64,000 bases of DNA from Spironucleus salmonicida (Eukaryota). The translations under genes were made by a program, and so were the position numbers. Under the pieces are notes generated by a model, which saw nothing but the letters and a program-made list of their open reading frames with translations, was not told where the DNA came from and did not search any database. This document shows positions 10,511-63,463 of this stretch, one piece after another. The stretch is from the NCBI RefSeq assembly GCF_000497125.1, contig NC_090601.1, forward strand, positions 620,001-684,000. The letters run 5' to 3'. Numbering within the stretch: the first letter of the stretch is position 1; each line of letters starts with the position of its first letter.

Positions 10511-11533
<1,023 letters not shown>

Positions 11534-12150: not shown

Positions 12151-12192
12151 CCCATTCCATTCTATTTTATTCCATTCCCTTCCCTTCCCTTC
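12151..12192. repeat. Short degenerate pentamer tract (CCATT/CCCTT)n; mirrored at ~19835-19876
   Basis: cccattccattctattttattccattcccttcccttcccttc. Confidence 0.6.
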
Positions 12193-20493: not shown

Positions 20494-21516
<1,023 letters not shown>

Positions 21517-31187: not shown

Positions 31188-32454
31188 TCTGCTTTATATA
31201 TATATATTATTATATACTAAATAGTAGAATAATTTCGATCTTTAGTTTCTGCAAAATACTAATTCGAGCGGTCCCAACTGCGCGTATTTGCTGATTCAGA
31301 CGCGCCCGGCATTTTCCTCCGATCGAATTCCGCGATTTCCAGCCACTCGAAAGCGAGCGATTCCGGCGCGTTCCGACTCGCTCGACCCGCTTCGTCTCAA
31401 GGCATCAGAAAGCTCCCGTAGGCCATTATATCACTACGCTCCAATTCGCTCAGCAGGAGGCATAAATTCGACGCAATTCGGCAAATGACGTTCCCGTGGA
31501 AGCGCTATGTGCGGTAATGCCGCCGTTATGATTTTCGGTATGTGATATAACGAATGGGCAGCGGCCAGTTCGAAAGTTGATGCAAATGCAATTGTTGCTG
31601 CAAGCGCGAACTGCGCCGATTGCGAGGTTTCCAGGCGCTGCAAATGTGGCGTATGGTGTATAATAATGATTTAAAGGCTGTTTGTAGCAGATAATTATTT
31701 CTCGTATTTGGCCGATTGCAGCGTAAAAGGCTCGTGTTTTAGCTAATGTTGGTGGTATTTATTGCTTAGTTACGTGCTAGCGTTCGCTACTTGTTTGTGT
31801 AGGGCATTTAGATGGTAGGGAAAGCTTTTTCAGATATAGATTGTGTTTTAGTCATATATATGATTGGATTTGCAGTATTTTTCTAGTTTGTACAGCAATG
31901 GGTTTGAATTGTAATTAGTAAAAATTGATATCGCAGTTATCTGGCAAATTTGTGTTGGCGCTACAAAGATAAGTTAAAGTGCTAAATATTTTATAATAAT
32001 AATTATTATGTTGTTATATTTATAATTCAATCAAGTTGTAAATAGCAATTCAGTAAATTAGATTATTAATTTTTTACTTAATGAGGTAGTAATATCACAC
32101 AATAATAGTAGTATTTGCATTTAAATTTGAGGATAATCATCACATTTATGTATAGAAATTATTACTCTAATTTTTATTTACCGTTATAAATGTAATATTT
32201 ATAAAATACTAGCCTAAAACTTAATTAATAACAAATAATAATGATATTCAATTAGATTTGATATCTTTATGCAGTTGGCAATAATGTTATCATAAATTGA
32301 GTATAAACGAACCAATCTACATTATTGCGTGTTGACAACACATCTTAATATTTATTGCTTTTAGCGTTAAAGCTTTATAATTTATAAAAATCTATACATT
32401 GAAATACTAATTTCTCGTAAAAATAAATAAATCCAATAAATACATAGTTAAGTA

Positions 32455-33483
32455 TCACTTTTTGCTCTTCTTGATGAAGTAGTAGGCAAGGCCACCACCA
32501 ACGGCGCCGACGACCACCAAGACTGCGATTACGATGCCGGTGATTGCACCACCAGAGAGCTTGTTGGCTGTAACTGTTTGGAAGCAGAACTCGCCAACCT
32601 TTTCGGAGCCCTTTTCGCACGTCTCGCACTTTGCTGCATCAAGCACATATCCCGGGAGGCAGGCACCGCACGTGGTTGGGTCTTTTGCTGTACATTTAGT
32701 CGCTGCAAAGTCGTAATTGGCGGTATCGACACAGCCGGTGCATGCATCAGGGGTTCCAGCTATACAGGTGCACAGTTTGTCTGTACATTTGTTGGCGTCT
32801 GGGGTAGGAACGGGTGGGGCAGTGCAGGTACGGCAGTTCTTACTAGTGGCTCCACAGCTACACGCGGTCGTCTGAGCAGTATTTCCACATTCAACTGCAG
32901 CATCATTTACACACGCCTAGTTTACTTTCAATCCGGCGCACGCAGCCATACAGATCTAGTCGGTTGACATCTCGTTACCAACTACGCACGTAGTGCATTT
33001 CGCCAAGCTGGTGCAGGTCAAACACTTGGTATCGCAGTTTTAGCATTTGTTGCCGGTTGGGAGAATGTCGCAAAACTTAGCCCCAGTGCATGGAGTCTTT
33101 TCATCGCACTCATTCTTATCACATTTCGCGTTCTTTAAGAAAAAGTCGGCATTGCATTCCGTACACGTATCAGCTGCAGTACACGTCTTGCAGTTTTCAG
33201 GACAGGCAGTGCACGTGTTGGCGCTAAGCATAAAGCCGTCGTTGCAAACTGTACACGTATCAGCCGCAGTACAGGTTTTACAACCTGCTGAACATGCAGT
33301 GCAGGCATTAGCCGCAAGAATGAAGCTGGGCTTGCAGGCTGTGCAGGTTCCAAGCGTGGTGGGTGCGCAGGTAATGCAATCCGCAACGGTGCACTTGAGG
33401 CAGGTCTGAGCAACAGAAGTCGCCTCGGTGGGGCATACAAATCCGGCAGGGCAAGCTACTTCAGTTGTACAAGTATCGGCCAT
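32455..33483 (-). CDS. Cysteine-rich membrane protein (CRMP1/VSP-like), 342 aa
   Basis: [18 protein letters not shown]..., CxxC repeats, internal TAA/TAG=Gln, transmembrane helix plus IKKSKK. Confidence 0.95.
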
Positions 33484-33860
33484 TTTGAGGGAGCGTGAAT
33501 TCGGATCTTTAGAAGCCAAATTTAGCAACCACTCCAATACCGAGAATATACTGAGTTAGTGGTACAGGTTCAAAGATCGGAATGGCTAATAATTCCCGCA
33601 ATATTGTAATATACAAATATTAAAAAAGGAAAGATTTCTTTACTCACTAAATGTTATATTATCAGTATTTATTGAAACTGTTTTTGTCATACGATATTTT
33701 GGTGTTCGGAGCGAAATGCGCCAGGAGGCATACCTTGCTCATTCTACCAAAACTTATTTTTACACGCTATCGAGTTAGGTATATCTATATTATTAATTAA
33801 CAAGAGTTTCTGTTTCTTATTGTATTAAATATCGGTACAGTAGAGTATAATTTCACCGTA
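32455..33860. repeat. CRMP gene plus ~380-bp upstream region, duplicated in inverted orientation at ~58210-59616
   Basis: Upstream (acggtgaaattatactctact...) and 5' coding sequence are near-identical; 3' coding parts diverge. Confidence 0.9.
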
Positions 33861-37276: not shown

Positions 37277-39315
37277 TCTATAAAGTTTATATATTAATCG
37301 TTAATACATTATTTTTATATGGATATTGTTCTAAATAGTATATATGAACTCTATTTTAGATATGAATTGAAGATAGTTTATATAATTAATTAAAATAACG
37401 AGGAATACTAATGTAAACTCTACATACAACGAGTTTACATTTGAATTATTATTAAAATCTTTATGAGTATACTAATATCAGAATCTGAATAGTTGTAATT
37501 TACTTTACAAAAGTATGTTTTATTCATAAATATTTTTATTAAGTAGTTTAATTTAATATGCACATACACCCAAAATTCTTCAAATTATCTTGACCAAGTT
37601 TATAATTTTATAAACCTATAAGAATATAATGTGGTATCAAATATTTTTATTTTAATAAAAATAAGTAAGTCCCTGTATAACGCATTCTTATAGAGGCTAA
37701 TACCAGTTATAATATATTTAAAAATGATGTTTAGCTTGAATTGAGTATATAAACTACATTAACTGCTATATTGGATTTAATAAATGCAGGATAAAAGATT
37801 TTATTTATTGATAAATAAACGAATTTTAAGTTTTTTAAATTAAAATATTTTAAAAGTACAATTATTATAGTTAAGGTTGAGTTTAATTAATGATATTACC
37901 AAAATTGTTATTGGAAGTGTATCAATGAATGTATCAGCTTCAAGCAATTCTTTCAAACCTGCAGTACTATAGTTTAATGATAATATGATAGTTTATATAG
38001 TATCTAATGGATTTTTGATTATATTACCTCTGGGAATGTGAAGAGATTCTAAGTTTTATCATATTAGCTAGTGAACGAAGTACATATAAAAAATAATTCC
38101 GTAATTTAAAAAATGATTAGAATAAAGGTATTAAAAGAATTTAATTGTAGGAACTAATTCTTTTCTCACTAATTAAATAAGGATTATACGCAAGTTTCTA
38201 ATCTCAAAAGGAGTTGTACATTGATGGTATTACATATTTAGCAAGTGAATAGATTGGATAAGTTATTGGCACTGATTTAGAAAAATGTTGACAATATGTT
38301 CTATCATAGTTAATTAAGATATAATTTCAATATTTTACTTAATTATTGATAATATCAAATTGGGTGTTTTAGATGACAGAATACACATAGCTTCCCTATA
38401 ATTTAGAGTTTTTTCTCATAATGAATGAACTTATAGAATAACTGAATTTATCAAGAAAGATATTTGCGATGAGAAGTAACATTTTAGAGTATATAACTTG
38501 TTAATATACTTAGGAAAATTAACTTATATAAAATTTAAAGTTTTAATAATAATCCGGAACACATTTTTAATTTTTATTTAATAAGAGTTTTTATTCGTTC
38601 CGTTTATCTTAATTAGAAACAGGAAGTATACATTTTATGAAAGATTCATTCAAATTATTTGCAAATAGAGAGAAAATATATCACAGTTTATTAATCATCA
38701 ATTTATGATACAGTAAAAATATCTTTAATAATAAATAACGAAAAAGTTCTTAGTTTAGTGTTAAACATAATAAACTAACCACAAAGTAATAATATATAAA
38801 TTTAACATGTTGTGTTGGCTAGTGTGTTTCTATAAGATAATTTATGTCTTAAAAAATACAGAATTAATTCAAATATAATTTCATTAAAGTGATGAAACAA
38901 CATCATTTGATGTTTTAAACATAATTTAGAGTTATGTTTATCTTGATAATATCAAACCCTAGTGCTTAGCATTGTTGGATAAAGTTTAATATTCTATGAT
39001 TGAGCTGTTATTAAAATATATACATATTATAATGCTTTTAGAGTTATGCGGATAGGAAGAATCATCAAAAACCTATATATGGATAACCTGATATGATTTA
39101 TAAGTAAAAGACTAGTCTTATCTCCCTATTATTAGTCATCTCTTAACTTAGATTAATTCAGAGTTGTGATAATAACAAAATTTTTTACTGTATATATTCA
39201 GTTGTATATCAACTTTTTAAAATCAACTATCTATTCCATAATTATGAAAAGTATACATATTCATAATATCATATCATATTATATAGTATACATATTACCA
39301 AATCTCCCTTCCTCA

Positions 39316-39912
39316 ATGCCAATCCCACAACCAGGATCGCCCGCACCCGACTTCAAGGTACAGGTTCTCACTCCTGACATGACCTTCGCTACCCGCCAGC
39401 TCTCTGACTACAAGGGTAAATACTTAGTTGTTATGTTCTATCCTATGGACTTCACCTTTGTCTGCCCTTCAGAGATCATCAAGTTCACTGAAGCTGCAGA
39501 ATCGCTCAGAAAGCACAATTGCGAGATCATCGTAGGTTCCTGCGATTCCCACTTCTCCCACTACGCCTGGTGCCTCCAGGACCGTAACGAGGGTGGAATC
39601 GGTGTCTGCAAGTGCGACCTCTTCGCGGACAAGTCCTGCACCATGGCAGAGGCATACGGTGTTCTCATCCCAGGGGCTGGGGTCCCTCTCAGAGGCAACT
39701 TTATCATTTCCGATAAAGGCATCATCCGCTCAGTTACTGTGAACGACCTCCCAGTTGGCAGATCCGTCGAAGAATGTGTCAGAGTGGTCAAGGCCTTCCA
39801 GCATGCCGACAAGACCGGCTGTGATATCCCTTGCGGCTGGACTCCCGAGAACAACGAGACTATCACCCCCACTATCGCTGGAATGAAGGAGTACTTCAAG
39901 AAAAACTATTGA
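39316..39912 (+). CDS. Typical 2-Cys peroxiredoxin (Prx1/AhpC-TSA), 198 aa
   Basis: MPIPQPGSPAPDF...FYPMDFTFVCPSEII...GGIG...LRGNFII...NDLPVGRSVEE...IPCGW. C-rich motif ctcccttcctca directly before the ATG. Confidence 0.97.
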   Translation: MPIPQPGSPAPDFKVQVLTPDMTFATRQLSDYKGKYLVVMFYPMDFTFVCPSEIIKFTEAAESLRKHNCEIIVGSCDSHFSHYAWCLQDRNEGGIGVCKCDLFADKSCTMAEAYGVLIPGAGVPLRGNFIISDKGIIRSVTVNDLPVGRSVEECVRVVKAFQHADKTGCDIPCGWTPENNETITPTIAGMKEYFKKNY

Positions 39913-40093: not shown

Positions 40094-40414
40094 ATGCATC
40101 AGGTCCTGGCATCACAGCGGTACAAAATGCACCACACCCCTGCGATGATGGGCGCGGTGGTGGCTAGGACGGTCGAGATGCTGTGCCGCTACCAGCCCCA
40201 CTTCACGGTCAGGGCGAACAGGATTGTGCCGTTCCGGGACGGAGAAGCGGGGTTTCAGCCGCTGCTGGACTGGGCCTTCCACGCACAGGGGCTGGTAGAG
40301 ATGGTGCGCCGGATGCGGTACGACAGCAGGGGCCGGACGGTGCTGAAGCACGTCGACTGGTTCGAGCGCAGCGTGCGGCCGCTCGGGTTCGAGTTCCCCC
40401 GCTGCGGCGGCTGA
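40094..40414 (+). CDS. Hypothetical protein, 106 aa
   Basis: GC3-rich ORF with aaaATG start and TGAGTGA end. Differences with the second copy (60472-60741) are mostly silent. Confidence 0.6.
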   Translation: MHQVLASQRYKMHHTPAMMGAVVARTVEMLCRYQPHFTVRANRIVPFRDGEAGFQPLLDWAFHAQGLVEMVRRMRYDSRGRTVLKHVDWFERSVRPLGFEFPRCGG

Positions 40415-41106
40415 GTGAGGAGCAGAGTCACTGGCAACGGCGCGCGCATAAGCATTTCCACGTGTTCAAAACGCTTACTAGCAGCATTTGCATCAGCATA
40501 GCTCACTATCTTCCGCCATAGAAATGAAACTCAGGAGGCTCATCTGCTCTAGCTATGAGTCTTCCTATAGAATAGAGCATCCGAATGTTTGATTCTTATT
40601 GAGCAGTTACAGCTTATCCGTGACATTAGGTGCAGGGTGGGTTGGTTACTGTGCGACCTAGACTATATGAGACCATCCGAGGCCCATTTCTAATTTTTAA
40701 TTTTTTCAATTATTACTAGTATCTTTCAATATATATACTTTTTAATATTTAAACTGTATCGAACCTGCACTTAAGTATACGACATAGTAGCAAATTAGCG
40801 AGCCAATGTGATGCATATTTTATAGCGAGATTAGTTTAAATTTTAATTAATACCGTATTGCAACCTCGTATTAAACATATATGCACTGTTTTACTACATG
40901 TACTGTTGCTAGAAATTTACTATGGCGAACTCTTACGTTGGCCATCATGCACGTGAGTAGTTTGAAAATACCCACCTAAGAATACGAGTGCGGCTGCACA
41001 AGACTATTGCTTTGTTCCGGATCACAGATATTCCAGTATTATGCTGTAATCCCATAGTAAGGGTATACGGCTAACAACTTTCCCAATTCCCGCTAGCACC
41101 CCAATA

Positions 41107-41229
41107 ATGCCAAAGCAGTTTTCGGAGATTCCCGCTGTAAACCTTTCAGCCCGTCTACGCACCGCTGCACTTCTGAGAGATAGCAATGGGTGCTGGCACC
41201 TGGAGGTCCTTGACCAGGGGTTTAAGTGA
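41107..41229 (+). CDS. Candidate 40-aa small ORF (MPKQFSEIPAVNLSARLRTAALLRDSNGCWHLEVLDQGFK)
   Basis: C-rich upstream tract (ttcccaattcccgctagcacccc), ends AAG TGA, frame preserved at 61428-61550. Confidence 0.4.
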   Translation: MPKQFSEIPAVNLSARLRTAALLRDSNGCWHLEVLDQGFK

Positions 41230-42476
41230 ACGGGCAGCTGACTAATGGGTCAAACAAGAGCGGTTGCATACGCGCAGTAAGGTACTATTATCTCACCGCC
41301 TCGACCTTGCAAGGGGCAGCTAGGCGCGCAGTCAAACACTGCATCCCGGCAGGCCCATGGACGCTCGCCTAGCTCAGCATGCCCGTTATGGGCTGTGCTA
41401 TTTTGTTGCTTCGCCCTAGTAAAGCGCTGCTGACGACTTATGCTATGAGGTCATCCCATAAGGCAGCCTTTCGCGGTCAGAGACCTCACTGGTAGCAGTT
41501 GGAACTGGGCAATGCGCAGTCGGGCCATGCTAGGGATGGGAGCCAGCGACTGGACAGCGAAAAGTACTTCTGGGCGTTGCAAAAGAATGAATATGCTTCT
41601 GGAACTGGGCTGCAGTTAGAATATCCCCAACTTCAGTACTCTCCCGCAGCATCTCCAGACTATCATCCCGCACCAACCATGGTCTTCTAAAGACAGATAG
41701 CAAAATCCTAGATCGCAGGTTTGGCTCTCTCGTGCTGGACAGTTCCTGGGCAAGGGAGCTTCGCAGCTGTCCCGCCTTGATGCCGATATACGGTATTGCC
41801 TCGGGCTGGTTTACAGTAGCCTGCTGAAGGACTGCACGCGGCGTCCTCTTCGAGCCATGGGGGTGGGGAGGAAGCTAGGGGAGTACGGTCGCGCCCTATT
41901 ACTAAAGATAGCCAGGTGTCATGCTGCCAGCCCGGCCAGTGCAAGTGGCCGCCCTCTCACGCATCGCCAAAACTCAGCTCTTCGTCGTCCTCCTCGGAGT
42001 CGGACGCGCGCGCGAAGTCACTGGCGGCCGACGTGTTTTCGAGGGCGCTTCCGAAGAGCGCGGGGGGCATTGTGGAGTGGGCAGAAACTTCGGCTAGGGT
42101 GGACGAGGGCGAGGGCGCAGAGAAACTGGAGGACGAAGTGCGTATTGCGTGGCATGGGATGCTACCCGGACAGCTAAACGCACGGCACGGTGTGGCGGCC
42201 ACGAAAGTGCCTGACGCAGACTAAGCAATCGTTGTATTTAATTCCGTAAAGTGGAAATGGTATATTACCTTGGCCGGACGATCCACGCCGATTTGAAAAA
42301 CTCAAAATCTATTTCCACCTAGGGCACTGGCAGGCCGGTCTGGCTAGAAAACAGTCACCTCACTCGCGCATCCAGCTCCGTGGCGAGCCAGCTGGCGGCA
42401 CGATAGAATGGTACCCGCACCAGCACAGAGGCTCGGCCGAGATGAAGTGCCATGTCCAGCGCGCAGGCCACCCGGC

Positions 42477-43169
42477 TCACCCCAGGGAGCTGAAGCCCAG
42501 CCGCCCGTCGCGGCTCTTCGCCATCCCGCCGAAGTCCCGCTCCAGGTAGTCCGCCTCCTCGATGATCGCGATCCTGCCCAGCACGCTGCGGCCGCGCGTG
42601 AGGTTGCGCAGGAAGTTGAAGCTCATCTTCTCGCGCGAGAACTTGTACACCGGCGTGTAGTCCATCTGCTGGTCCAGGTTCTTGGTGAGGGTGTAGAGGA
42701 TCGCCAGCTTGAGGTCCTGTATCTCGAACACCTTGTCCAGCAGCACCGAGGACACCAGCCGCGTGCGGTTCGCGTCCTTGGCGAGCACCTTCGTCATGTC
42801 CATCAGCCGCAGCTCCTGCCTGATCAGCGCGTGCTTCAGCGCGCCCAGCTCCTCCACCACCTGGGGCGCGATCTCGACTTTCTGCATCAGCGGTGAGCAG
42901 GGCGGCTCGCTCTTGGAAAAGCTCGCCTGGCTGCCGAAGCTCTGCCGCTCGCACTCGGCCTGCACCGGTCGCGATATGAGCACCTCCGGCGAGGCCTGGT
43001 CCGTCTGGGCGGCGAGGGCGGCCGTTTCCACAGCGTCGGTCTGGACGCCGGCGGTGACCGTCTGGGGGCGCAGCTTCAGCTGGCTGACGGCGGTCTCCAG
43101 CTGCTGGATCCGGAGGTTCTTGTCCAGGTCCGCCTGCTTGTAGATATCGAGCTCCTGCTGGGCGTCCAT
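42477..43169 (-). CDS. Hypothetical coiled-coil protein, 230 aa (MDAQQELDIYKQ...)
   Basis: GC3-rich ORF, C-rich motif (ttcttccccgctcc) before the ATG, duplicated at 62804-63463. Confidence 0.8.
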   Translation of the reverse strand: MDAQQELDIYKQADLDKNLRIQQLETAVSQLKLRPQTVTAGVQTDAVETAALAAQTDQASPEVLISRPVQAECERQSFGSQASFSKSEPPCSPLMQKVEIAPQVVEELGALKHALIRQELRLMDMTKVLAKDANRTRLVSSVLLDKVFEIQDLKLAILYTLTKNLDQQMDYTPVYKFSREKMSFNFLRNLTRGRSVLGRIAIIEEADYLERDFGGMAKSRDGRLGFSSLG

Positions 43170-50217: not shown

Positions 50218-50600
50218 TTTTAAAATTTGGAAAGGTAAAATTTTTAAAAGAATTTTATCTATTATTATATGATAAATCTACATATTTTAAATATATTAAA
50301 TAAATACACTTTAAAAATCTATATTTAGAATCTCAATAAGGACTTAGTTTTATAACGCTATCATCTGAATACTAACTTTTAAATTAATATTTATAATATT
50401 AATACATGCTAATACTTTTTCAATATATCATTATTCTATTCGAAATAATATGAGATTACCTCTGACCAAGATGATAATTGTTATACCACCTGACTTTAAT
50501 ATTAATCTCTAAGCATAGTTTCGGATCATATTACATATTTATACTATTAATTTCTCATATACATAATTTAATAGCCAATTTTAAATTTCACAACAAATAC

Positions 50601-50963
50601 TCATTTTTCAACTGTCGAGTATTGGATTAATGAAGTATCACCATACTAAAAAATAGTATTCCAGCTTCGATCTATATAATATCTTGTACTTAATTCAACA
50701 AATTCAAATGGCTAGGGATAATTTTGTTCCTATAATACATACTGATTTTAACTATTTTCATCGTACTCATCCCCAAAGTCATCCTCATCACCTATCGGGT
50801 AGTGAAAAGATCCAGCAAGCTTACCATCTTTGTGCTTTGAATAGTTGGCTTTAATCATAGCGATCTGCACGGACTACTTATCGACAATTTACTGCAATCT
50901 CGCGCATTCCTGCTTTGCGGCGCGAAACTTCTCTGCGAGCATTTGGTTTTTTATATCATTCAT
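50601..50963 (-). CDS. Hypothetical protein, 120 aa; paralog of 30843-31187
   Basis: MNDIKNQMLAEKFRAAKQECARLQ...PQPFEFVELSTRYYIDRSWNTIFQYGDTSLIQY. Confidence 0.75.
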
Positions 50964-51015
50964 TATTTTCTATATTCTACCATATAATAACATATAATAT
51001 CAAAAATTGATTTCC

Positions 51016-52932
51016 TCATTCCTCGTCTTTCTTCCCATTCAAATTCGCTTCTCCTTCACCCTTGCCCCTCACCTGCTTCCTCTTCTCCTTGTGCGCCTCC
51101 TTTCTGCGCATGTGGCCACTGACCAGAATTTCGGTTATCATGACCCCGCTAAGCAGGCAGTTGAGCGCGTGCCTGCCCTTCTTCTTCATGTGAATTCCGA
51201 TGGAGTTCCCGCCCAGCCAGCCGGAAATGCAGAACTCGTTCAGGAACTCGCAGTTTGCGCTGTCGCTCACCTGGATCAGCACCTGGCCGACCACGTTCAG
51301 CCCCCTGGCATGCTGCTCGAATTCAGCGTCCTCTAATTAGTCGAAAGTGAGCGATTCTGGCGCGTCCCCGACCTGCTCGATGAGCCCCTGCGTCAGGACC
51401 TTCAGAAAGCTCGCATACTTCATTTTCACGACCCGATTCGTGTGGTTCAGCAGAAAGTTCACATTCGACTCAATTCGGTAAATGACGTTCCTGTCCACCC
51501 CGCTCTGCTTGTTAAAGGCTCCGCAGCCCATTTGCACGATGTGATATAACTGATTGCTCCCTTCCACTTCGAAAATCGAATTTACGTGCTTATTAATGAG
51601 GTAAATTCGCGACGGCTCAACGCCGAAACTGCGCCGATTTGCGAGGTTTCCGACCACTTCTTCCACGTCGTTTTCCTCGAAAAATCGGCTAAAACCGAAC
51701 TGTTTTTTGATCTCCGCCCTCGCATTTTCGTCCTAAAAACGCTCAAAAGGGTGCAAAGGCATCGACCTTTGCTGGTCCGCAACGAACGTTTCTGATAGAT
51801 TTTTCAACTGATATAACGCGACTTTCGCGCTCAATTCATCGCTTTCTGGCCCTTCCAATTCCGCAAATTTCTCGAAAATTGCGACGTAAAAACCGCCGGA
51901 ATTCGTCTTCCAGGGGTAGAATCGCGAGGTCTGCATGAGCTGATTTTTGACCGATTCCGACGTCGGCGCGTAAAATGACGGCAGGAGATTCTGGTCGATT
52001 TTCAGGTCCTCGTCGAGGACTTTCCAGGCCGAAAAGCCCGCGGACGCGAATTTCGTGGCGTTCGGAACGACTCTGACGCTGGAGCCGAAGGACTGCAAAA
52101 TCGCAGAGACCACAGCCTCGTTTTCCAGCGGGTTCATGGAGCAGGTCGAATAGACCAGTTTCCCGCCTACTTTAAGGAGCTGCAGACCGCGCGTCAGGAT
52201 CTGCTTCTGGAGCGGGTGCAGGCCCTGGCCGTGCTTGACTTTGAAGGTTCTCCAGACGTCTGGGGCCTTCCTGAGCGTTCCGTCGCCAGAACAGGGCACG
52301 TCGGCGAGCACTTTGTCGAATTTGAAAGGGAAATCTGGCAGTCTGGATGCGTCAAGATTCGTGATTAGCAGATGGGGCGTTGGTTGGTCGATTAGGTTGT
52401 GCATTAAGGTGTGCGTGCGCTTCAAATCGGCGTCATTTGCAACAACTAGGCCTGTGGGACCGGTCGATTGGACAAGTTATTGGGTTTTCTGGCCGGGAGC
52501 AGCGCACATGTCGAGTACGCGGTCTCCTGGTTGGACGTCTAGGAAGCAGGGTGGGAGCATAGAGACGAACTCTTGACGCGTGACCAGGCTTGACTCGTTG
52601 AGTGCTACGAGCGTCTTGTGGACGTTGTTGAGAGCTTCGTTTGAGCGCAGTTCGCGTCTCGAAATATCGATCTGGTACGCGAAGGGAGGCATATCGAGCT
52701 TTTCAAGCGTGGTTGCAGCGAACAGGGGCTCCATGAGCTCAGAAAAACGCTGCTAGTAGAGGACCGAGCGGAACTGTTTCTAGATGCGGAAAACTGCTGG
52801 CAGTTCCTTTGAAAAATCCTCGAAAAAGTGGGAAAAATCAGCTTCTGGAAGTATCTGCTGATAGTAATTGTAAATTTTCGTATCCGTCGCGAGGATTTGG
52901 GACGATTTTGGGTTATTATTAGGAATTGACAT
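51016..52932 (-). CDS. NSUN2: tRNA (cytosine-C5) methyltransferase, NSUN2/Trm4/NCL1 family, 638 aa
   Basis: RQEFVSMLPP, VLDMCAAPGQKT, FDKVLADVPCSGDGTLRK, VYSTCSMNPLENEAVV. All ORF-track fragments share one frame, joined by TAA/TAG. Confidence 0.93.
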
Positions 52933-53393
52933 TATAAGGAGCGGAAAGGAAAAAATTAATATACAACTTATATAATAAATTATCTAGATTTTTAAAAAAA
53001 TGTAAATGGTAAATTGCAATATACTATATTGATATTAAATTTAATATCATAATATTTTAGTTTATTCATATAGTAATATAAACAGTGGGATGTTAAATAC
53101 TATAAATTAAAATAGATGCTAATTTACAGCTAGATGTAACTATAAATTACGTATAGATAATGGTCTTGCTGTAATTATAGTATAATTAAATGAATATTTA
53201 CATGTAAATTATGCCTGTTATTTCAGGGATAAAATAAGTATTTGAATTTTTAAAATCAAAATATAGCTTAAAATAGAACTAAAAACTAGCCTATTTTATT
53301 TTGCAAATATATATAAAACTTGTTATCTCAAAAATTATCAATTCATAGCTTTATGAGAAATAATAACTTCAGACAAGTACTATTTCATCAGAA

Positions 53394-53672
53394 TCATACA
53401 AACTTGTCTAATTCTGATAAATTAAGTATACTACTATTTTCAGAGTCTCTAAATAATGCGACGCTTTATGCTTAATACCGGCTAGTGTTCTCATACAAAA
53501 GATCTTCTTTATATTTACCGCCAAATTCAAAACTTCCACTAGCTAATGCGTGGATTGTGCTGTAAGAAGTTGTATTCCACTTAGTATTCTTTAATATAGT
53601 CTTCTTATTCTGTAAAGGTGTCAGTAGATTCACCTAGTTGAGTTATTTTTCTTTTTTTCTAATTGGTTTCAT
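53394..53672 (-). CDS. Hypothetical protein, 92 aa
   Basis: Open code-6 frame; shares motifs with 47184-47456. Confidence 0.6.
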
Positions 53673-54371
53673 TATATAAATTAAAAACTATATATACTTA
53701 TATAAATTATATTTTTTTATATAGAAAAATCTATTTTATTACTAAATATATAAATTAAATTAATATATTATATAAATATTTCCTTTATTTTATATTTAGT
53801 TGTAATAAAATAAACAAAAATGAAATGAGATTTATATAACTTTGGGTATTTTTTATGGTAACATGGTTATTGAGTATTAAAATAAATAATACATATTTAT
53901 AGATAATATTTTGCAATAAATTAAGAAAATGACTATCTAACTTTACGAACTAAATACATTTAATAATACAAATTTATATATAAATTTCGTGAAAATGCAA
54001 GTAAATTATATTTTATAAATAAAATTATTATGAGTTATTAAACAGGTCAATCTATTTTTAAATAAATATATTTTATTAAAAACTTTACATGATTTATTGA
54101 TCCGTAATTTATTTTATGTAATGCCGTTAATGTTTAACTATGATGGTTAAATAACCTAAGGTATTAAATAAGGTATCAAAATTAAATTAATTTCACCACA
54201 TTATGATTTTAATAGGAATGTGAGCACCTTTGAAACTGTGATGCTAGTTATATTCAGCAATAAGAGAACTTTAACTTATGATTTAGCATATAAATGAATC
54301 AATTGCAATAATTCAAAATGCTAATAGAAATCTAATTTTATACATTATTATTTGTATATAATATTGTATAA

Positions 54372-54653
54372 TCATTTTTTCAAAGCATATGATATGTCTC
54401 CAAATGTATTCTTTCGCTTAGGATTCATGAGCCTGTCTAGATTATGAACATATTCTACCTCATGTTATAAATTACCGTTATTCTCAGTGTACTTCAAACC
54501 TTCCAAAATCACCTATGACCTATCCGAGAACATTACTTTTTTCTGTTCTGGAATAGTTACACCTTGCAAGCTTTACGTTATGTCAAGCTCAGGAGGCAGC
54601 GAACCAGAATAAATAGTTCTAACCTGTTTGCTATGCTTCAAGATAGCTCGCAT
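54372..54653 (-). CDS. Hypothetical protein, 93 aa (MRAILKHSKQVRTIYSGSLPPE...)
   Basis: Open code-6 frame from ATG to TGA, starting ~38 nt downstream of the tRNA. Confidence 0.5.
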
Positions 54654-54690
54654 TATAATCCAAAAATGTGAGATGCGTAAATTACAAAAA

Positions 54691-54762
54691 AGCTCCTACC
54701 CAGATTCGAACTGGGGTCAAAAGATCTAGAGTCTACTGTGCTAACCGCTACACCATAGGAGC
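54691..54762 (-). tRNA. tRNA-Gln with CUA anticodon (reads UAG)
   Basis: GCTCCTA TG GTGT AGCGGTTA GCAC A GTAGA CT-CTA-GA TCTTT TGAC CCCAG TTCGAAT CTGGG TAGGAGC T. Complete 72-nt cloverleaf resembling eukaryotic tRNA-Gln, U73 discriminator, followed by an oligo-T Pol III terminator. Confidence 0.95.
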
Positions 54763-54867
54763 TGATATTTCTTATTATACTATATAATAAATTAATTTTC
54801 ATTTCGCAATAACTTACATGTATAACTTAGGATTATTTTCAACAAATGATGTATTTTTAACTTAAAA

Positions 54868-55317
54868 ATGCTCGCCCTCCTAGCCTGCACCAAAATCAAC
54901 TACAAACTTACACCGACTTTGCTGAGACTCACGCTATCAAATGTGGAGTGCGGTTTTCCCTACAACGCACTCGGATCGATATAGCTCTTTTACGATAAAA
55001 ACGAGATGTTCCACCAGGGTTTCATCGTCCAGGACAGTAACGTCCTGGAGTTCGTCTGTGATACCGCCGAATGCCAGGAAATTTTCGATGAATTCTACAA
55101 CAAATCATCGACTTTGGAGATAATTTTGGATATCGCCGGTACGATACAAGAACAGCAGCTGAGTCTCAACGACCACACTAACTTCATGTTCGACGTTATG
55201 GTCGCATCTGTGGCATTCCTGTCTATTTTTACACTCCTGATGGTAGTTTTGGGAGTGGTGTACTGTATGGAAAAGAAGAAGAAACTCAGGTACGGGTATA
55301 GGGAGATCCGGGGGTGA
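54868..55317 (+). CDS. Small type-I membrane protein, 149 aa
   Basis: MLALLACTKIN...ECG...FVCDTAECQ...VAFLSIFTLLMVVLGVVYC-MEKKKKLR; paralog of 16333-16773. Confidence 0.8.
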
Positions 55318-56786
55318 ATTTGGTATTTTTGTATAAAATTGAAGTTTGATGTATATTATTATTATATACATATGAATGCAAATATGAAATGAAACAAAAT
55401 GTGTTTCAAGTAAACATGTTGCCTGGTGTGAGATTTACTGAGTTTCGAGCTAAAAACTTTAAATTCATACTTTTAATGCTTTAGGACTGGTTACAATTGC
55501 AGTATTGATTACCTACTTAGGTAGAATTATAAATTGTAATGTATGATTAGGGTGCTAATAGGTAGCGAATATGCGGATTGTAAATGCTTATCAACTAATT
55601 TTTAAGTTAGCCATTAGCTTAGAATAATTTGGCAACGGTTTTTTAAATTAATCTAAGCTAGTAATTGAGGAAGGACAACTATCTATATTAGCTTTATAAA
55701 ATTAGTAGAAGTTAACTAATAAAGATAATATAACTCTGTAGAGAAGTAAGTTGAATAGGTTGGTTTTCATCTCAATTAATGTCTATTCTATTAAGCAAAA
55801 TTTTCTATGCTAAATATTAATTTTGACCTATAATATAATATAATATAATATAATCTTGGTTAATCTTTTCTGATTAGCTAAAATCAAGGATACATATATG
55901 TTACCAATTACTTTAAAAATAGTAGCAACGAATAAATATTTGAAAACAAAGCTAACTATGTTTGTGTACAAGAAAATATATTGAATATAACAAATTGTAG
56001 TGATTATTGTTTAATTAATTGCTAAAATTTCACTATTATTTCAACTTATAAAACATATTTATGCTATTTATAATAAATAGATCGTTTGGGAATCAAATAG
56101 CATGATAATTATAATTAACATCAAATTTTGATTATCTATATTATAATATAATTTGATAGGCTCTAAATATACTTTCTCAACTTTAAATTAAGTCAATATT
56201 ATCATATTTAGATTTATTACCATATTTTTAAAATAATAAAGTATTTTATATTTAATTTATTTAGTAAATTAAATACGGTAGGATACACAATGAAATACTA
56301 TTAGGACATATATTGGGATATTAATTGATATCATTTTGTTTCAAAAAAATCCCGATTATTATGTAATAAATATATTATCACCAATAGTAATCTATAATAA
56401 TACAATTTCGGTTCCAAATAAGATTTAGTAACTTATAATAATAGTTATTCTATGTCACTCAAGAAATTTTTTTCTACTATACAATAAATTATTTATATGT
56501 ATGTATATTTTTATATAATATCTAATTGATATTCAACACAATACACATATTACATTTCTTTGGGTGTAAATATTTATATTTTAATATATATTTTTCAAAT
56601 TCTAAGTAATAAAATAAATATGTAATATGTATTATTATATTTTTATTATATTTTAGAATCTTTTAAGGTATCAAAATCTTTGTCGTATCTCCTTATTATG
56701 CCTTAATATATAAAAATAATGTGTAGTTTTTATTGCATTTATAAAATAGAGAATAAAACCCTTACTATATTTTGGGAAATTTGTAA

Positions 56787-57044
56787 ATGAACAAATATCA
56801 TAAATGGAGCAACAATGAAGTTAATGAACTGATGTCTGCTGTACACTAAGCAACAGGTGTAAATGGTAGAATAAGTTGGAAACAAGTAGCAGAATGTGTT
56901 AAATACGGAAGCGAGTGTTAACTAAAGAGACAATATAACAATATAAAATGTAGAGGTAAAGGCGTGTTGTAAAACTCCGCAATATTCAAAAGAGAAGAAA
57001 ATATTATCATTAACTAGATCATCAGCATAATGAGCACTATGTGA
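56787..57044 (+). CDS. Myb-like domain protein, 85 aa
   Basis: MNKYHKWSNNEVNELMSAVHQATGVNGRISWKQVAECVKYGSECQLKRQYNNI; paralog of 29731-29988. Confidence 0.8.
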
Positions 57045-58587
57045 GATATATAAATTTTCATAAAACTAATTAAAAATTAAAATTTTCAAAGTATTGCAAT
57101 GCAATCATAAAAATTATCTCTATAGTTAATTTTACTAATTTTATGGTTTATGCATTACCCATTAATATAATAATTTAGACTATATAATAAAATTATAGCA
57201 TTGGTCAGTGATTTATAAATATATAGCAAATATTTATCATTTTATCGACTAATACTTATACTTAATAAATTTGATGTTAATATTTTGTATAAAATATTAT
57301 GTATATATAATTATTTTATAAACCATAGCTTCTTTCATAAATATTAATATAATTTTAAATTGATTTGTATATACGTCTGTAGAAATATTAGGATCCATTT
57401 ATGTAGTAAAATACATTAAATAGATTATGGTTATTGGAGAGATTCTAAGGATAAGCAAAACTAATAAAAATAAGTATTAATTTAATACTCATATCCTTAT
57501 ATAAATTATTTTATTAACACAAAACAACAGTAATACCGCCAATTAATAGAAACTATTAATGTTACTTTAATTTTATCATTAAACTATTATAAGTTTTTCC
57601 ATAATTATAAAAAATATTATGATTATTATAGATTTAAATTTGTTAAATTATTCAATATATAACGATAGTTATATAATATCAATTTAGTTTATAAAATATT
57701 ATTTATTATCTTAATCATGTAATTATATCTGAGAAAGTGTAAATAATTATATCATTTTGTTGGTTATGATGTTATTTCTAAATTTTAAATCCAAGTATCA
57801 TGAAATATAAATTAGCATGTTGCACCTATATTATATACTGGATAGAATAAATTATATTATTTGATTTAATAATAATCTAAATATAAAGTAGGAATAAAAT
57901 TAGTTTGATATTTACTAGAGTTGTGGTAATGCAATAAATTGAATGTTAGGCAGTAATATATTCTTTGTTATAGTATCTCGAGATTTTTGTAATATGTTTA
58001 GTAATATAAACACATTTTGCGATGTTCATTAATCAAATGTGTAAATTTTACAGGATTGAACAGCAACTCTTACTTTTAATTAGAGATAGTTGAAATAAGT
58101 GATAGGTTAATATTTTACTGTAAATGTTATTAGACAATTAAAATAGTATGTTACTGTCAGCTTTGCTGATTTTAAAATCGTATCCGCACATATTTAGTAC
58201 AATTATAGCACGGTGAAATTATACTCTACTGTACCGATATTTAATACAATAAGAAACAGAAACTCTTGTTAATTAGTAATTTAGATATACCTAACTCGAT
58301 AGCGAGTAAAAATAAGTTTTGGTAGAATGAGCAAGGTATGCCTCCTGGCGCATTTCGCTCCGAACACCAAAATATCGTATGACAAAAACAGTTTCAATAA
58401 ATACTGATAATATAACATTTAGTGAGGTAAAGAAATCTTTCCTTTTTTTAATATTTGTATATTACAATATTGCGGAAATTATTAGCCATTCCGATCTTTG
58501 AACCTGTACCACTAACTCAGTATATCCTCGATATTGGAGTGGTTGCTAAATTTGGCTTCTAAAGATCCGAATTCACGCTCCCTCAAA

Positions 58588-59616
58588 ATGGCTGATACTT
58601 GTACAACTGCATTAGCTTGCCCTGCCGGATTTGTATGCCCTACCGAGGCGACCGCTGCTGCTCAGAACTGCCTCAAGTGCACCGTTGCGGATTGCATTAC
58701 CTGCGCACCCGCCACGCTTGGAACCTGCACAGCCTGCAAGCCCAGCTTCATTCTTGAGGCTAATGCCTGCACTGCATGCTCCGCAGGTTGTAAAACCTGT
58801 ACTGCGGCTGATACGTGTACAGTTTGCAACGACGGCTTTATGCTTAGCGCCAACACGTGCACTGCCTGTCCTGAAAACTGCACTACCTGCTCTGCTGCTG
58901 ACACATGCACGAAATGCAATGCCGACTTTTTCTTAAAGAGCGCGAAATGTGATAAGAATGAGTGCGATGAAAAGACTCCATGCACTGGGGCTAAGTTTTG
59001 CGAGATTCTCCCAACCGGCAACAAATGCTAAAACTGCGATACCAAGTGTTCGACCTGCACCAGCTTGGCGAAATGCACTACGTGCGCAGTTGGTAACGAG
59101 ATGTCAACCGACTAGATCTGTATGGCTGCGTGCGCCGGATTGAAAGTAAACTAGGCGTGTGTAAATGATGCTGCAGTTGAATGTGGAAATACTGCTCAGA
59201 CGACCGCGTGTAGCTGTGGAGCCACTAGTAAGAGCTGCCGTACCTGCACTGCCCCACCCGTTCCTACCCCAGACGCCAACAAATGTACAGATAAACTGTG
59301 CACCTGTGTGGCTGGAACCCCTGCAACCTGTACTGGCTGCATTAATCCTAAAGATTATGAATTTTCTGCTGCTGCCTGTAAACCTAAGGATCCCACCACC
59401 TGCGGCACCTGCCTGCCAGGCTACGTCCTCAAGGAGGCCAAGTGTGAGGAGTGCGCCGCCGGCTTCGACAAGGTCGGCGAGTTCTGCTTCCAGACAGTTA
59501 CAGCTAATAAGCTCTCTGGGGGTGCCATCGCCGGCATCGTAATCGCAGTCTTGGTGGTCGTCGGCGGTGTAGGCGGTGGCCTCGCCTATTATTTCGTAAA
59601 GAAAGCGAAGAAGTGA
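58588..59616 (+). CDS. Cysteine-rich membrane protein (CRMP1/VSP-like), 342 aa, mosaic
   Basis: CxxC repeats, internal TAA/TAG=Gln, transmembrane helix plus VKKAKK. Confidence 0.95.
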
Positions 59617-60471
59617 CAGTTTGGTACTTATTATTTGTTGCGCAGCCTGACTGCATAAGGCTTGTGAGATGGTTGGGAATTGGTTACGCAAGGAATTTGT
59701 TGGAATGGGATGTGGAGAATGTCTAGTAATAATATAATTATATTTGATCCATTTTATGCAACATAATATATTTATTCCTTAATTGGATTAATTCTTAGAA
59801 ATAAATAAATTATTTTTTATAAAGTGCTATATGTTATATACACTTCCTATTCACATATGATGCCAAAATTTATTTATTATCATATTAGGTTATCTGGAAT
59901 TTCTATTATAAAAATATATAAAGCATTTAGATTTTTATAAAGTATGTATTATTATTGTTCATTTTTACGCTAGAATATCTAAATATAAATTAAAATAGCT
60001 AAATATGATAGTTTAGAATACTGCCCATTTTAATAGACTCTTATTTAATCTAATATTATTTATAATACTAAAATATGTCCAGATTGACATATTAATAATT
60101 TCAGGTTTAAATCATTATTTGAACGAAAAATTTATCTGATGATTACATTAAACCTCTTTATCACTATACCTTTAATTACATAGAATTTGAATTTCTAATA
60201 TCTAGGGATATCTTGTGTAAACTTATATACGAGTCAAAAATAATGGATGTATCATAAAAAATTATCAAAATTTAATTATTTTGCATATCATTTAAAATTA
60301 TATATCAACTTGAATTCAACCTATTCTACTCAGTTAAGATGCAGCGACCATCTTAATCTAGAAATTATATTTTAAATAATAATAGCAAAACTTAACTTTT
60401 ACTAAAGTTAATGTTGATAATTATCTCAATATAACTCTATCTTTGTGCTTTAACTATACCATACCCACGCG

Positions 60472-60741
60472 ATGATGGGCGCGGTGGTGGCTAGGACGGT
60501 CGAGATGCTGTGCCGCTACCAGCCCCACTTCACGGTCTGGGCGAACAGGATTGTGCCGTTCCGGGATGGGGAAGCGGGGTTTCAGCCGCTGCTGGACTGG
60601 GCCTTCCACGCGCAGGGGCTGGTAGAGATGGTGCGCAGGATGCGGTACGACAGCAGGGGTCGTACGGTGCTGAAGCACGTCGACTGGTTCGAGCGCAGCG
60701 TGCGGCCGCTCGGGTTCGAGTTCCCCCGCTGCGGCGGCTGA
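60472..60741 (+). CDS. 5'-truncated copy of the 40094-40414 gene (89 aa from internal MM)
   Basis: Duplication breakpoint falls 3 nt before an internal ATG ATG; may be a pseudogene. Confidence 0.45.
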   Translation: MMGAVVARTVEMLCRYQPHFTVWANRIVPFRDGEAGFQPLLDWAFHAQGLVEMVRRMRYDSRGRTVLKHVDWFERSVRPLGFEFPRCGG

Positions 60742-62803
60742 GTGAGGAGCAGAGTCACTGGCAACGGTGCGCGCATAAGCATTTCCACGTGTTCAAAACG
60801 CTTACTAGCAGCATTTGCATCAGCATAGCTCACTATCTTCCGCCATAGAAATGAAACTCAGGAGGCTCATCTGCTCTAGCTATGAGTCTTCCTATAGAAT
60901 AGAGCATCCGAATGTTTGATTCTTATTGAGCAGTTACAGCTTATCCGTGACATTAGGTGCAGGGTGGGTTGGTTACTGTGCGACCTAGACTATATGAGAC
61001 CATCCGAGGCCCATTTCTAATTTATTCAATTATTACTAGTATCTTTCAATATACATAATTTTTAATATTTAAACTGTATCGAATCTGCACTTAAGTATAC
61101 GACATAGTCGCAAATTAGCGAGCCAATGTGATGCATATTTTACAGCGAGATTCCTTTAATTTTTAATTAATACCGTATTGCAACCTAGTACTAAACATAT
61201 ATGTGCTGAGTTACTACATGTACTGTTGCTAGAAATTTACTATGGCGAACTCTTACGTTGGCCATCACGCAAGTAAGTAGTTTGAAAATACCCACCTAAA
61301 GAATACGAGTGCGGCTGCACAAGACTATTGCTTTGTTCCGGATCACAGATATTCCAGTATTATGCTGTAATCCCATAGTAAAGGTATACGGCTAACAACT
61401 TTCCCAATTCCCGCTAGCACCCCAATAATGCCAAAGCAGTTTTCGGGGATTCCCGCTGTAAACCTTTCAGCCAGTATACGCACCGCTGCACTTCCGAGAG
61501 ATAGCAATGGGTGCTGGCACCTGGAGGTCCTCGGTCAGGGGTTTAAGTGAACGGGCAGCTGACTAATGGGTCAAACAAGAGCGGTTGCATACGCGCAGTA
61601 AGGTACTATTATCTCACCGCCTCGACCTTGCAAGGGGCAGCTAGGCGCGCAGTCAAACACTGTATCCCGGCAGCCCCATGGACGCTCGCCTAGCTCAGCA
61701 TGCCCGTTATGGCCTGTGCTATTTTGTTGCTGCGCCCTAATAAAGCGCTGCTGACGACTTATGCTATGAGGTCATCCCATAAGGCAGCCTTTCGCTGTCA
61801 GAGACCTCACTGGTAGCAGTTGGAACTGGGCAATGCGCAGTCGGGCCATGCTAGGGATGGGAGCCAGCGACTGGACAGCGAAAAGTACTTCTGGGCGTTG
61901 CAAAAGAATGAATATGCTTCTGGAACTGGGCTGCAGTTAGAATATCCCCAACTTCAGTACTCTCCCGCAGCATCTCCAGACTATCATCCCGCACCAACCA
62001 TGGTCTTCTAAAGACAGATAGCAAAATCCTAGATCGCAGGTTTGGCTCTCTCGTGCTGGACAGTTCCTGGGCAAGGGAGCTTCGCAGCTGTCCCACCCAG
62101 ATGCCGATATACGGTATTGCGTTGGGCTGGTTTACAGTAGCCTGCTGAAGGACTGCACGCGGCGTCCTCTTCGAGCCATGGGGGTGGGGAGGAAGCTAGG
62201 GGAGTACGGCCGCGCCCTATTACTAAAGATAGCCAGGTGTCATGCTGCCAGCCCGGCCAGTGCAAGTGCAAGTGTCCGCCCTCTCACGCATCGCCAAAAC
62301 TCAGCTCTTCGTCGTCCTCCTCGGAGTCGGACGCGCGCGCGAAGTCGCTGGCGGCCGACGTGTTTTCGAGGGCGCTTCCGAAGAGCGCGGGGGGCATTGT
62401 GGAGTGGGCAGAAACTTCGGCTAGGGTGGACGAGGGCGAGGGCACAGAGAAACTGCAGGACGAAGTGCGTATTGCGTGGCATGGGATGCTACCCGGACAG
62501 CTAAACGCACGGCACGGTGTGGCGGCCACGAAAGTGCTTGACGCAGACTAAGCAATCGTTGTATTTAATTCCGTAAAGTGGAAATGGTATATTACCTTGG
62601 CCGGACGATCCACGCCGATTTGAAAAACTCAAAATCTATTTCCACCTAGGGCACTGGCAGGCCGGTCTGGCTAGAAAACAGTCACCTCACTCGCGCATCC
62701 AGCTCCGTGGCGAGCCAGCTGGCGGCACGATAGAATGGTACCCGCACCAGCACAGAGGCTCGGCCGAGATGAAGTGCCATGTCCAGCGCGCAGGCCACCC
62801 GGC

Positions 62804-63463
62804 TCACCCCAGGGAGCTGAAGCCCAGCCGCCCGTCGCGGCTCTTCGCCATCCCGCCGAAGTCCCGCTCCAGGTAGTCCGCCTCCTCGATGATCGCGATC
62901 CTGCCCAGCACGCTGCGGCCGCGCGTGAGGTTGCGCAGGAAGTTGAAGCTCATCTTCTCGCGCGAGAACTTGTACACCGGCGTGTAGTCCATCTACTGGT
63001 CCAGGTTCTTGGTGAGGGTGTAGAGGATCGCCAGCTTGAGGTCCTGTATCTCGAACACCTTGTCCAGCAGCACCGAGGACACCAGCCGCGTGCGGTTCGC
63101 GTCCTTGGCGAGCACCTTCGTCATGTCCATCAGCGCGCCCAGCTCCTCCACCACCTGGGGCGCGATCTCGACTTTCTGCATCAGCGGTGAGCAGGGCGGC
63201 TCGCTCTTGGAAAAGCTCGCCTGGCTGCCGAAGCTCTGCCGCTCGCACTCGGCCTGCACCGGCCGCGATATGAGCGCCGCCAGCGAGGCCTGGTCCGTCT
63301 GGGCGGCGAGGGCGGCCGTTTCCACAGCGTCGGTCTGGACGCCGGCGGTGACCGTCTGGGGGCACAGCTTCAGCTGGCTGACGGCGGTCTCCAGCTGCTG
63401 GATCCGGAGGTTCTTGTCCAGGTCCGCCTGCTTGTAGATATCGAGCTCCTGCTGGGCGTCCAT
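62804..63463 (-). CDS. Second copy of the coiled-coil protein, 219 aa (11-aa in-frame deletion)
   Basis: CAG to TAG at 62993-62995 is silent in code 6. A 33-nt deletion removes KHALIRQELRL. Confidence 0.75.

What the first reader, a model, noticed from the sequence alone, without database searches (positions are those of the whole stretch)
54691..54762. Amber-decoding tRNA-Gln(CUA) with a destabilised anticodon stem
Seen: anticodon CUA (plus-strand tag at 54727-54729). The anticodon stem GUAGA/UCUUU has G27.U43, a U28-U42 mismatch and only three Watson-Crick pairs, with G37, while the other stems pair normally. Established: dedicated tRNA-Gln(CUA/UUA) underlie the Hexamitinae code, and an unpaired top of the anticodon stem boosts stop-codon reading by tRNA-Trp in Blastocrithidia. 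Inference: the loosened stem may be an adaptation for efficient UAG decoding or for GlnRS recognition.
Basis: partly seen in the sequence, partly recalled or inferred. Interest (0 to 1): 0.75.

Follow-up and report, generated by a model that had tools for sequence, protein, structure and literature searches.

The report
Known amber tRNA with loose stem
This fish-parasite tRNA reads the usual stop signal UAG as glutamine, which is already known; its loose stem is part common signature of such tRNAs and part tolerated quirk, probably not the stop-reading trick first proposed.

Summary
The tRNA and its stem are as described. The genome is Spironucleus salmonicida-type, and a tRNA-Gln(CUA) of that species is already in print (PMC5304391). 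The two stem oddities separate. U28xU42 is not tied to stop reading: tRNA-Gly(CCC) in this genome has the same G27.U43/U28xU42 top, and the ochre reader has five Watson-Crick pairs. Breaking 28:42 lowered readthrough in yeast tRNA-Gln. G27.U43 is recurrent: 55 of 78 natural stop-cognate tRNAs against 3 of 173 canonical Gln tRNAs, but also 15 of 64 tRNA-Tyr. These span only about three lineages and controls are unmatched. Best reading: a cognate amber reader tuned for a weak UA codon, with a tolerated internal U.U. The Blastocrithidia analogy fails on geometry and logic. Two leads: the loose C34 stem may also read UAA, the main Gln codon (about 0.17), and the GlnRS G36-reading arginine is lost in both named hexamitins but kept in Giardia. 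The scan's notes hold no earlier report of this.

The parts
54691..54762 (-). tRNA-Gln(CUA) gene, 72 nt, no intron, discriminator U73
   Evidence: Gln-type body 82-83% identical to the genome's Gln-CUG and Gln-UUA genes
54727..54729 (-). anticodon CUA (34-36)
54726..54726 (-). G37, shared with the ochre reader and with Tyr, Trp and Phe tRNAs of this genome (5 of 7 A36 arms)
54732..54737 (-). 5' strand of the anticodon stem, A26 to A31 (G27 at 54736, U28 at 54735)
54719..54724 (-). 3' strand of the anticodon stem, U39 to U44 (U42 at 54721, U43 at 54720)
54686..54690 (-). run of five T directly after U73: likely RNA polymerase III terminator
   Evidence: sequence; function inferred from general knowledge

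Best explanation
This is the working, fully cognate amber decoder of a hexamitin whose only stop is UGA. Steps: (1) Pol III transcribes it (inferred from intact internal promoter motifs and the T run). (2) The genome's GlnRS charges it through U35, helped by a G36 pocket that has lost its arginine (sequence shown, effect inferred). (3) It pairs C34-U35-A36 with UAG with little competition from an altered eRF1 (motif changes shown, specificity inferred). The stem has two layers. G27.U43 is a tuning feature common in tRNAs with a U35A36 anticodon, stop readers and Tyr alike, which probably makes the tRNA easier to bend and so offsets a weak codon pairing (correlation shown, cause inferred). U28xU42 is a tolerated internal mismatch, clamped by A26-U44 and G27.U43. 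It is most simply a half-finished swap between the A28-U42 of the CUG gene and the U28-A42 of the UUA gene, kept because a partner tRNA can share the codon and any slip to UAA is harmless here.
For: TAG lies at a conserved Gln of eRF1 (residue 396). Full Gln set found: CUA x2, UUA x3, CUG x3, UUG x1. Gly-CCC has the same top two pairs; 5 of 42 distinct arms in G000 have a mismatch and 13 of 42 a non-Watson-Crick 27:43; Trp-CCA has five pairs. 28:42 is mismatched in 1 of 78 other stop readers, and that one is not called a tRNA by ARAGORN, so stop reading does not need it. G27.U43 55 of 78 vs 3 of 90 and 0 of 83; viral tRNA-Tyr 15 of 64, non-Watson-Crick 33 of 64. U28 is shared with the UUA gene and U42 with the CUG gene. 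eRF1 has STS, QADCIKS and YSCDGVF where human has GTS, TASNIKS and YLCDNKF. GlnRS keeps the U35 readers (120 of 120 homologues) but has Gly at E. coli Arg402. A Tetrahymena UUA tRNA reads both UAA and UAG (passages).
Against: Both CUA copies keep the mismatch though their flanks are unrelated, which fits selection for it as well as concerted evolution. Mismatched stems lean towards C34 isoacceptors (3 of 10 vs 2 of 32, Fisher p=0.078), which fits relaxed selection but equally fits superwobble. The ochre reader has G27-C43, so G27.U43 is not required even here. The G27.U43 counts collapse to 10 of 18 clusters (85%) or 3 of 10 (80%) against 2 of 51 and 0 of 23, and no canonical ciliate Gln tRNA was available as a matched control. 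Gly at 402 occurs in 66 of 120 GlnRS homologues, including standard-code groups such as Dictyostelium and Trypanosoma (their code is recalled), so it is permissive, not diagnostic. Anticodon-stem disruptions did raise UAG reading by yeast tRNA-Gln(CUG) in another study, though as first-base wobble.
Confidence: 0.6

Rival explanations
1. The loosened stem lets C34 also pair with A, so this tRNA reads UAA as well as UAG (extended superwobble). It would share the load of the commonest Gln codon and could be a living relic of the step from UAG-only to UAG+UAA reassignment.
For: PMC13092985 proposes that C34 tRNAs with a 4-bp stem read A-ending codons. E. coli su7(CUA) with a disrupted top pair reads UAA (as reported; original not seen). 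TAA is 46% of Gln codons in 60 long ORFs but has only three genes. Loose stems sit in Gln-CUA, Gly-CCC and Val-CAC. No phage amber reader has a 28:42 mismatch, as expected if reading UAA were harmful where UAA is still a stop (inferred).
Against: The published effect needs an unpaired 27:43; here it is a wobble closed by A26-U44. Phage amber readers often carry G27.U43 (4 of 12 viral, 33 of 51 metagenome CUA) without evident harm. A dedicated UUA reader exists. The superwobble test in bacteria was mixed: 5 for, 4 against, 3 neutral. Tetrahymena tRNA-Gln(CUA) reads UAG only.
Confidence: 0.17
2. One reading: the loose stem boosts UAG decoding against release factor, as the 4-bp stem does for tRNA-Trp in Blastocrithidia.
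For: G27.U43 enrichment in stop readers. An E. coli tRNA-Thr with G27xA43 is a better amber suppressor than its 5-bp form (reported).
Against: Perfect stem in the ochre reader; same top in Gly-CCC; broken or pyrimidine:pyrimidine 28:42 lowers readthrough for tRNA-Gln; eRF1 motifs are altered; UAG is cognate.
Confidence: 0.1
3. The loose stem lets GlnRS splay the anticodon and accept A36.
For: A mammalian GlnRS did not charge Tetrahymena tRNA-Gln(CUA), and the needed changes are stated to be unknown.
Against: The same enzyme must charge the ochre reader, which has A36 and a perfect stem. The enzyme's G36 loop is changed in both named hexamitins. A stem mismatch lowered charging and stability in yeast sup70-65.
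Confidence: 0.07
4. The gene is decaying or silent, or the mismatch is repaired by editing, and the UUA tRNA reads all UAG by wobble.
For: Weakest arm of 10; the unmodified sequence does not fold as a cloverleaf at minimum energy.
Against: Two identical copies in unrelated flanks; intact other stems and terminator; a single-found, apparently normal Gly-CCC gene has the same top.
Confidence: 0.06

Closest known systems
tRNA-Gln(CUA) of Spironucleus salmonicida and other UAR=Gln eukaryotes (PMC5304391, section 9 read)
   Same: Same species by GlnRS identity, same anticodon and role, companion UUA reader.
   Different: The paper does not describe the anticodon stem. Ciliate-type stop readers found here have G27.U43 but a paired 28:42.
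4-bp anticodon-stem tRNA-Trp(CCA) of Blastocrithidia, Condylostoma, Blepharisma (bioRxiv 10.1101/2023.10.09.561518 part 1; PMC13092985 passages and Discussion parts 1-2)
   Same: Weakened top of the anticodon stem in a tRNA tied to a reassigned stop; C34.
   Different: There 27:43 is unpaired and the codon is near-cognate with no cognate tRNA. Here 27:43 is G.U, 28:42 is the break, UAG is cognate, and this genome's Trp-CCA has five pairs.
Readthrough-inducing yeast tRNA-Gln(CUG)[M] with pyrimidine28:purine42 (bioRxiv 10.1101/2023.06.19.543857, sections 5, 6, 9 read)
   Same: Position 28:42 of a Gln tRNA matters for UAG reading; this genome's UUA (U28-A42) and UUG (C28-G42) genes obey the rule.
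   Different: The CUA gene breaks the rule (UxU), which in that work removed the gain. That work covers near-cognate reading and does not mention diplomonads (0 hits).
Extended anticodon / idiosyncratic tuning (review passages, PMC11231383; PMC13092985 Discussion)
   Same: Stem pairs and position 37 co-vary with the anticodon; fits G27.U43 and G37 in U35A36 tRNAs.
   Different: The passages seen do not name G27.U43 as a mark of natural stop readers.

Membership tests
dedicated tRNA-Gln(CUA) of UAR=Gln eukaryotes | cloverleaf tRNA with CUA anticodon | tested here: met
dedicated tRNA-Gln(CUA) of UAR=Gln eukaryotes | body derived from tRNA-Gln | tested here: met
   the only other DNA matches in G000 are Gln-UUA and Gln-CUG genes, 82-83%; alignment
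dedicated tRNA-Gln(CUA) of UAR=Gln eukaryotes | host reads UAG and UAA as Gln | tested here: met
   conserved genes open only under table 6; TAG at conserved Gln396 of eRF1; one site checked against a homologue, not a genome-wide count
dedicated tRNA-Gln(CUA) of UAR=Gln eukaryotes | companion UUA reader in the genome | tested here: met
   3 genes
dedicated tRNA-Gln(CUA) of UAR=Gln eukaryotes | expressed as mature tRNA and charged with Gln | not testable with these tools
   no RNA holder on record; no charging assay possible
4-bp anticodon-stem near-cognate readers (Blastocrithidia type) | top pair 27:43 unpaired, 28:42 to 31:39 paired | tested here: not met
   27:43 is G.U, 28:42 is UxU, 26:44 is A-U
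4-bp anticodon-stem near-cognate readers (Blastocrithidia type) | anticodon near-cognate to the reassigned stop, no cognate tRNA present | tested here: not met
   CUA is cognate to UAG; UUA genes exist for UAA
4-bp anticodon-stem near-cognate readers (Blastocrithidia type) | loosened stem raises decoding of the near-cognate codon | not testable with these tools
   needs a reporter; open for UAA
readthrough-inducing tRNA-Gln with pyr28:pur42 | Watson-Crick pyrimidine28:purine42 | tested here: not met
   UxU; rule
tRNA-Pyl (ARAGORN label) | short D loop without GG, 1-nt link, 3-nt variable loop (features recalled) | tested here: not met
   G18G19, U8-G9 link and 4-nt variable loop present; label changes to Gln under table 6

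The most novel reading that the evidence does not exclude
The doubly loosened stem makes this amber tRNA a natural superwobbler that also reads UAA through C34:A. With G27.U43 recurring in ciliate and phage stop readers and the GlnRS G36 arginine lost in hexamitins, it would preserve the ambiguous intermediate by which a single G36-to-A change in tRNA-Gln(CUG) captured UAG and then dragged UAA along, one answer to why these two codons are nearly always reassigned together.
Probability: 0.17. Interest if true: 0.72.

Novelty: new variant of a known kind. Interest (0 to 1): 0.42.

Why it matters
The gene and its job are known. What is added is comparative. (1) A 27:43 G.U wobble recurs in stop-cognate tRNAs from at least three separate lineages plus this one, a simple design rule worth testing for suppressor tRNAs. 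(2) How GlnRS of UAR=Gln eukaryotes accepts A36 is stated as unknown in PMC5304391; the Arg402 position now gives a one-residue test, Giardia against hexamitins. (3) If the CUA tRNA reads UAA, the coupling of UAG and UAA reassignment gains a second mechanism. I found none of these three in the held library (searches; with G27, U43, tRNA, anticodon stem, stop codon gave 0 papers), but the 1990s papers on 27:43 and on diplomonad tRNAs were not seen, and I recall Schultz and Yarus arguing in 1994 that reassigned tRNAs carry ambiguity-promoting features.

Tried and rejected
Expression: no RNA holder listed. Four runs of one study, RNA only by guess, were laid on 50500-57500: one contig (X1) covers 54399-54761 and one (X2) 54459-54752 with no differing letter; X3 and X4 pieces stop at or short of the gene. 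Strand, level and maturity cannot be read from contigs, and the runs may not be independent, so I use this neither for nor against expression. Matched control: the 21 virus records with a stop reader gave one candidate canonical Gln match; three distinct loci with both types showed G.U only in the CUA gene in two and in neither in one, too few to count. Origin from the local tRNA-Tyr arm: rejected, its stem differs. Arg402 loss as a diagnostic of the code: rejected, 66 of 120 homologues have Gly. tRNA-Pyl label: rejected. A chimera of UUA and CUG genes: not separable from stepwise descent with one genome. Searches had a gap one base too long and were redone. Phage collection search gave one partial hit. 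A tRNA isopentenyltransferase search of G000 found no candidate, which does not show absence. The G000 tRNA set is incomplete: 42 distinct arms; one search scored 63 of 976 candidates, one search left 8 of 108 matches unlisted, and the Leu-UAA genes were not fetched.

Full report
Observation. The gene lies at 54691-54762 on the minus strand. A second copy on contig C9 is identical over 72 of 72 bases, with only about 108 bp of shared sequence between the loci. A26-U44 can pair, so the stem is best drawn as a six-step helix with an internal U.U under a G.U.

Organism and code. The window holds Giardia-like cysteine-rich surface proteins and conserved genes that are open only when TAA and TAG are read. 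The genome's GlnRS is 100% identical to a protein named Spironucleus salmonicida GlnRS. In eRF1 a TAG falls on a Gln conserved in human eRF1. PMC5304391 (passages and section 9) already cites a tRNA-Gln(CUA) gene of this species. PMC1805757 (passages) notes that such genes were identified earlier, and PMC3916229 (passages) gives 145 tRNA genes and UGA as the only stop. The gene and its role are therefore known.

Inside the genome. A pattern search found nine Gln genes: CUA x2, UUA x3, CUG x3, UUG x1. Top two pairs: CUA G.U and UxU; UUA G-C and U-A; CUG U.G and A-U; UUG U.G and C-G. Of 42 distinct anticodon arms recovered, 5 have a mismatch (Gln-CUA, Gly-CCC, Val-CAC, Val-UAC, Phe-GAA) and 13 a non-Watson-Crick 27:43; Gly-CCC has the same G27.U43, U28xU42, A29-U41, G30-C40; Trp-CCA has five pairs. 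In 60 ORFs of 400 codons or more from 284 kb, Gln codons are TAA 46%, TAG 16%, CAA 16%, CAG 21% (ORFs not checked one by one, so some may be spurious). The busiest stop reader thus has a perfect stem, and a sense tRNA shares the odd one. From the alignment the two stop readers share, against both canonical genes, loss of base 17, C25, A26, G27, A36, G37 and A59, and both have U28. The CUA and CUG genes share A29-U41, C34 and U42. The simplest path is CUG to CUA to UUA, with U28xU42 left midway; gene conversion is not excluded. This is inference from four sequences.

Outside the genome. Four loci that ARAGORN did not call were kept in. Many UUA readers sit on short contigs with C4A4 telomeres (15 distinct), which I read as spirotrich ciliate nanochromosomes (recalled). 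15 of 21 viral loci gain at least 0.1 in ORF cover when TAG is read, against 4 of 21 for TGA. A 28:42 mismatch occurs in 1 of 78, 0 of 90 and 3 of 83. After clustering on the body with the arm left out, G.U is the majority in 10 of 18 stop clusters and 2 of 51 canonical ones at 85%, and 3 of 10 against 0 of 23 at 80% (177 controls there under a looser match). So there are about three independent lineages, and raw p-values overstate the case. Viral intronless tRNA-Tyr, which also has U35A36, shows G.U in 15 of 64 and some non-Watson-Crick 27:43 in 33 of 64, with 28:42 always paired. The loose 27:43 therefore follows the UA anticodon more than competition with release factor.

Literature on the stem. 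In bioRxiv 10.1101/2023.06.19.543857 (abstract, passages, sections 5, 6, 9) yeast tRNA-Gln(CUG) needs a Watson-Crick pyrimidine28:purine42 for strong UAG readthrough; breaking or swapping it cut activity about 3-fold and U28:C42 gave no gain. PMC3664417 (passages) shows the other side: several stem disruptions made yeast tRNA-Gln(CUG) an amber suppressor, and one was unstable and less charged. PMC13092985 (passages, Discussion parts 1-2 of 3) finds at least one 4-bp stem in 85.6% of bacterial genomes and proposes that C34 tRNAs with such stems read A-ending codons, with mixed support. bioRxiv 10.1101/2023.10.09.561518 (part 1 of 2) reports that top-pair mutants of su7(CUA) read UAA; the originals were not seen. 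PMC4117946 (passages) shows that a paired 26-44 can offset other destabilising stem changes. PMC11231383 and PMC11687900 were seen as passages.

Partners. eRF1 has changes in all three stop-reading motifs (motifs named). In E. coli GlnRS, Arg402 and Lys401 read G36 while Arg341, Gln517 and Arg520 read U35 (PMC2978374 passages). The U35 readers are kept in 120 of 120 homologues. At 402, S. salmonicida has Gly and Hexamita inflata Glu, the only Glu in 120. The three clusters named Giardia, Aduncisulcus paluster and six unnamed close relatives keep Arg. Against over-reading: 66 of 120 have Gly there, including distant eukaryotes with the standard code as I recall it, and the hexamitin loss may be one event.

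Verdict. A real and known amber tRNA-Gln. The stem is a variant not seen in 78 other natural stop readers but shared with a sense tRNA of the same genome. Most likely it works as an ordinary cognate reader with a tuned 27:43 and a tolerated 28:42 (0.6). It is not a member of the Blastocrithidia class, two defining features having failed, though it could work like one towards UAA (0.17). Interest 0.42, carried mainly by the G27.U43 pattern and the GlnRS lead.

Noticed in passing
L212 (G000:C3, GlnRS), loop matching E. coli 398-407: The G36-reading arginine is Gly here and Glu in Hexamita inflata but Arg in Giardia and Aduncisulcus; Gly is also common in other eukaryotes.
   Followed up: partly
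L082 (G000:C1:1066124-1066194, -): tRNA-Gly(CCC) with the same G27.U43 and U28xU42 top as the amber reader.
   Followed up: yes
L067, L079, L065: Phe-GAA, Val-CAC and Val-UAC have a true unpaired 27:43, the Blastocrithidia-type 4-bp stem; Val-CAC is the best superwobble candidate in this genome.
   Followed up: partly
L017-L020, L024, L072: Ile-GAU and Val-GAC use G34 where most eukaryotes use A34/inosine (recalled), while Ala, Arg, Leu, Pro and Thr have A34.
   Followed up: no
window 51016-52932 (-): NSUN2/Trm4-like tRNA m5C methyltransferase with five in-frame TAA/TAG, 1.8 kb from the tRNA; proximity probably chance.
   Followed up: partly
window 6252-12386 and 19641-25775: 6,135-nt inverted repeat, reported as 100% complementary, around a 7.25-kb spacer that holds a radical SAM plus UPF0004 gene at 14584-16023, likely a tRNA methylthiotransferase (function recalled).
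   Followed up: no
window 40131-43130 and 60458-63424: Direct duplication, 97-98% alike, about 20.3 kb apart, next to a peroxiredoxin gene at 39244-39912.
   Followed up: no
window 32434-33632, 58439-59637 and about 10560-11533: Cysteine-rich membrane proteins, two with weak Giardia VSP matches below the cut-off, in inverted arrangement.
   Followed up: no
window 54868-55317 (+): 149-aa ORF with a C-terminal hydrophobic stretch, divergent from the tRNA about 105 bp upstream; no family over cut-off.
   Followed up: no
G000 whole: No candidate tRNA isopentenyltransferase found; 5 of 7 A36 tRNAs have G37, suggesting m1G37 in its place (inferred).
   Followed up: partly
L116: An ochre tRNA-Gln(UUA) lies within 1.5 kb of an eRF1-like reading frame on a code-6 eukaryote contig.
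   Followed up: no
L169, L187: Dense tRNA cluster with eukaryote-type anticodons and a CUA tRNA with a true G27xA43 open top; source unknown.
   Followed up: no
L365 (G000:C5, near 400823-400909): tRNA-Tyr(GUA) with a 12-nt intron, two copies, each beside a tRNA-Pro(AGG).
   Followed up: partly
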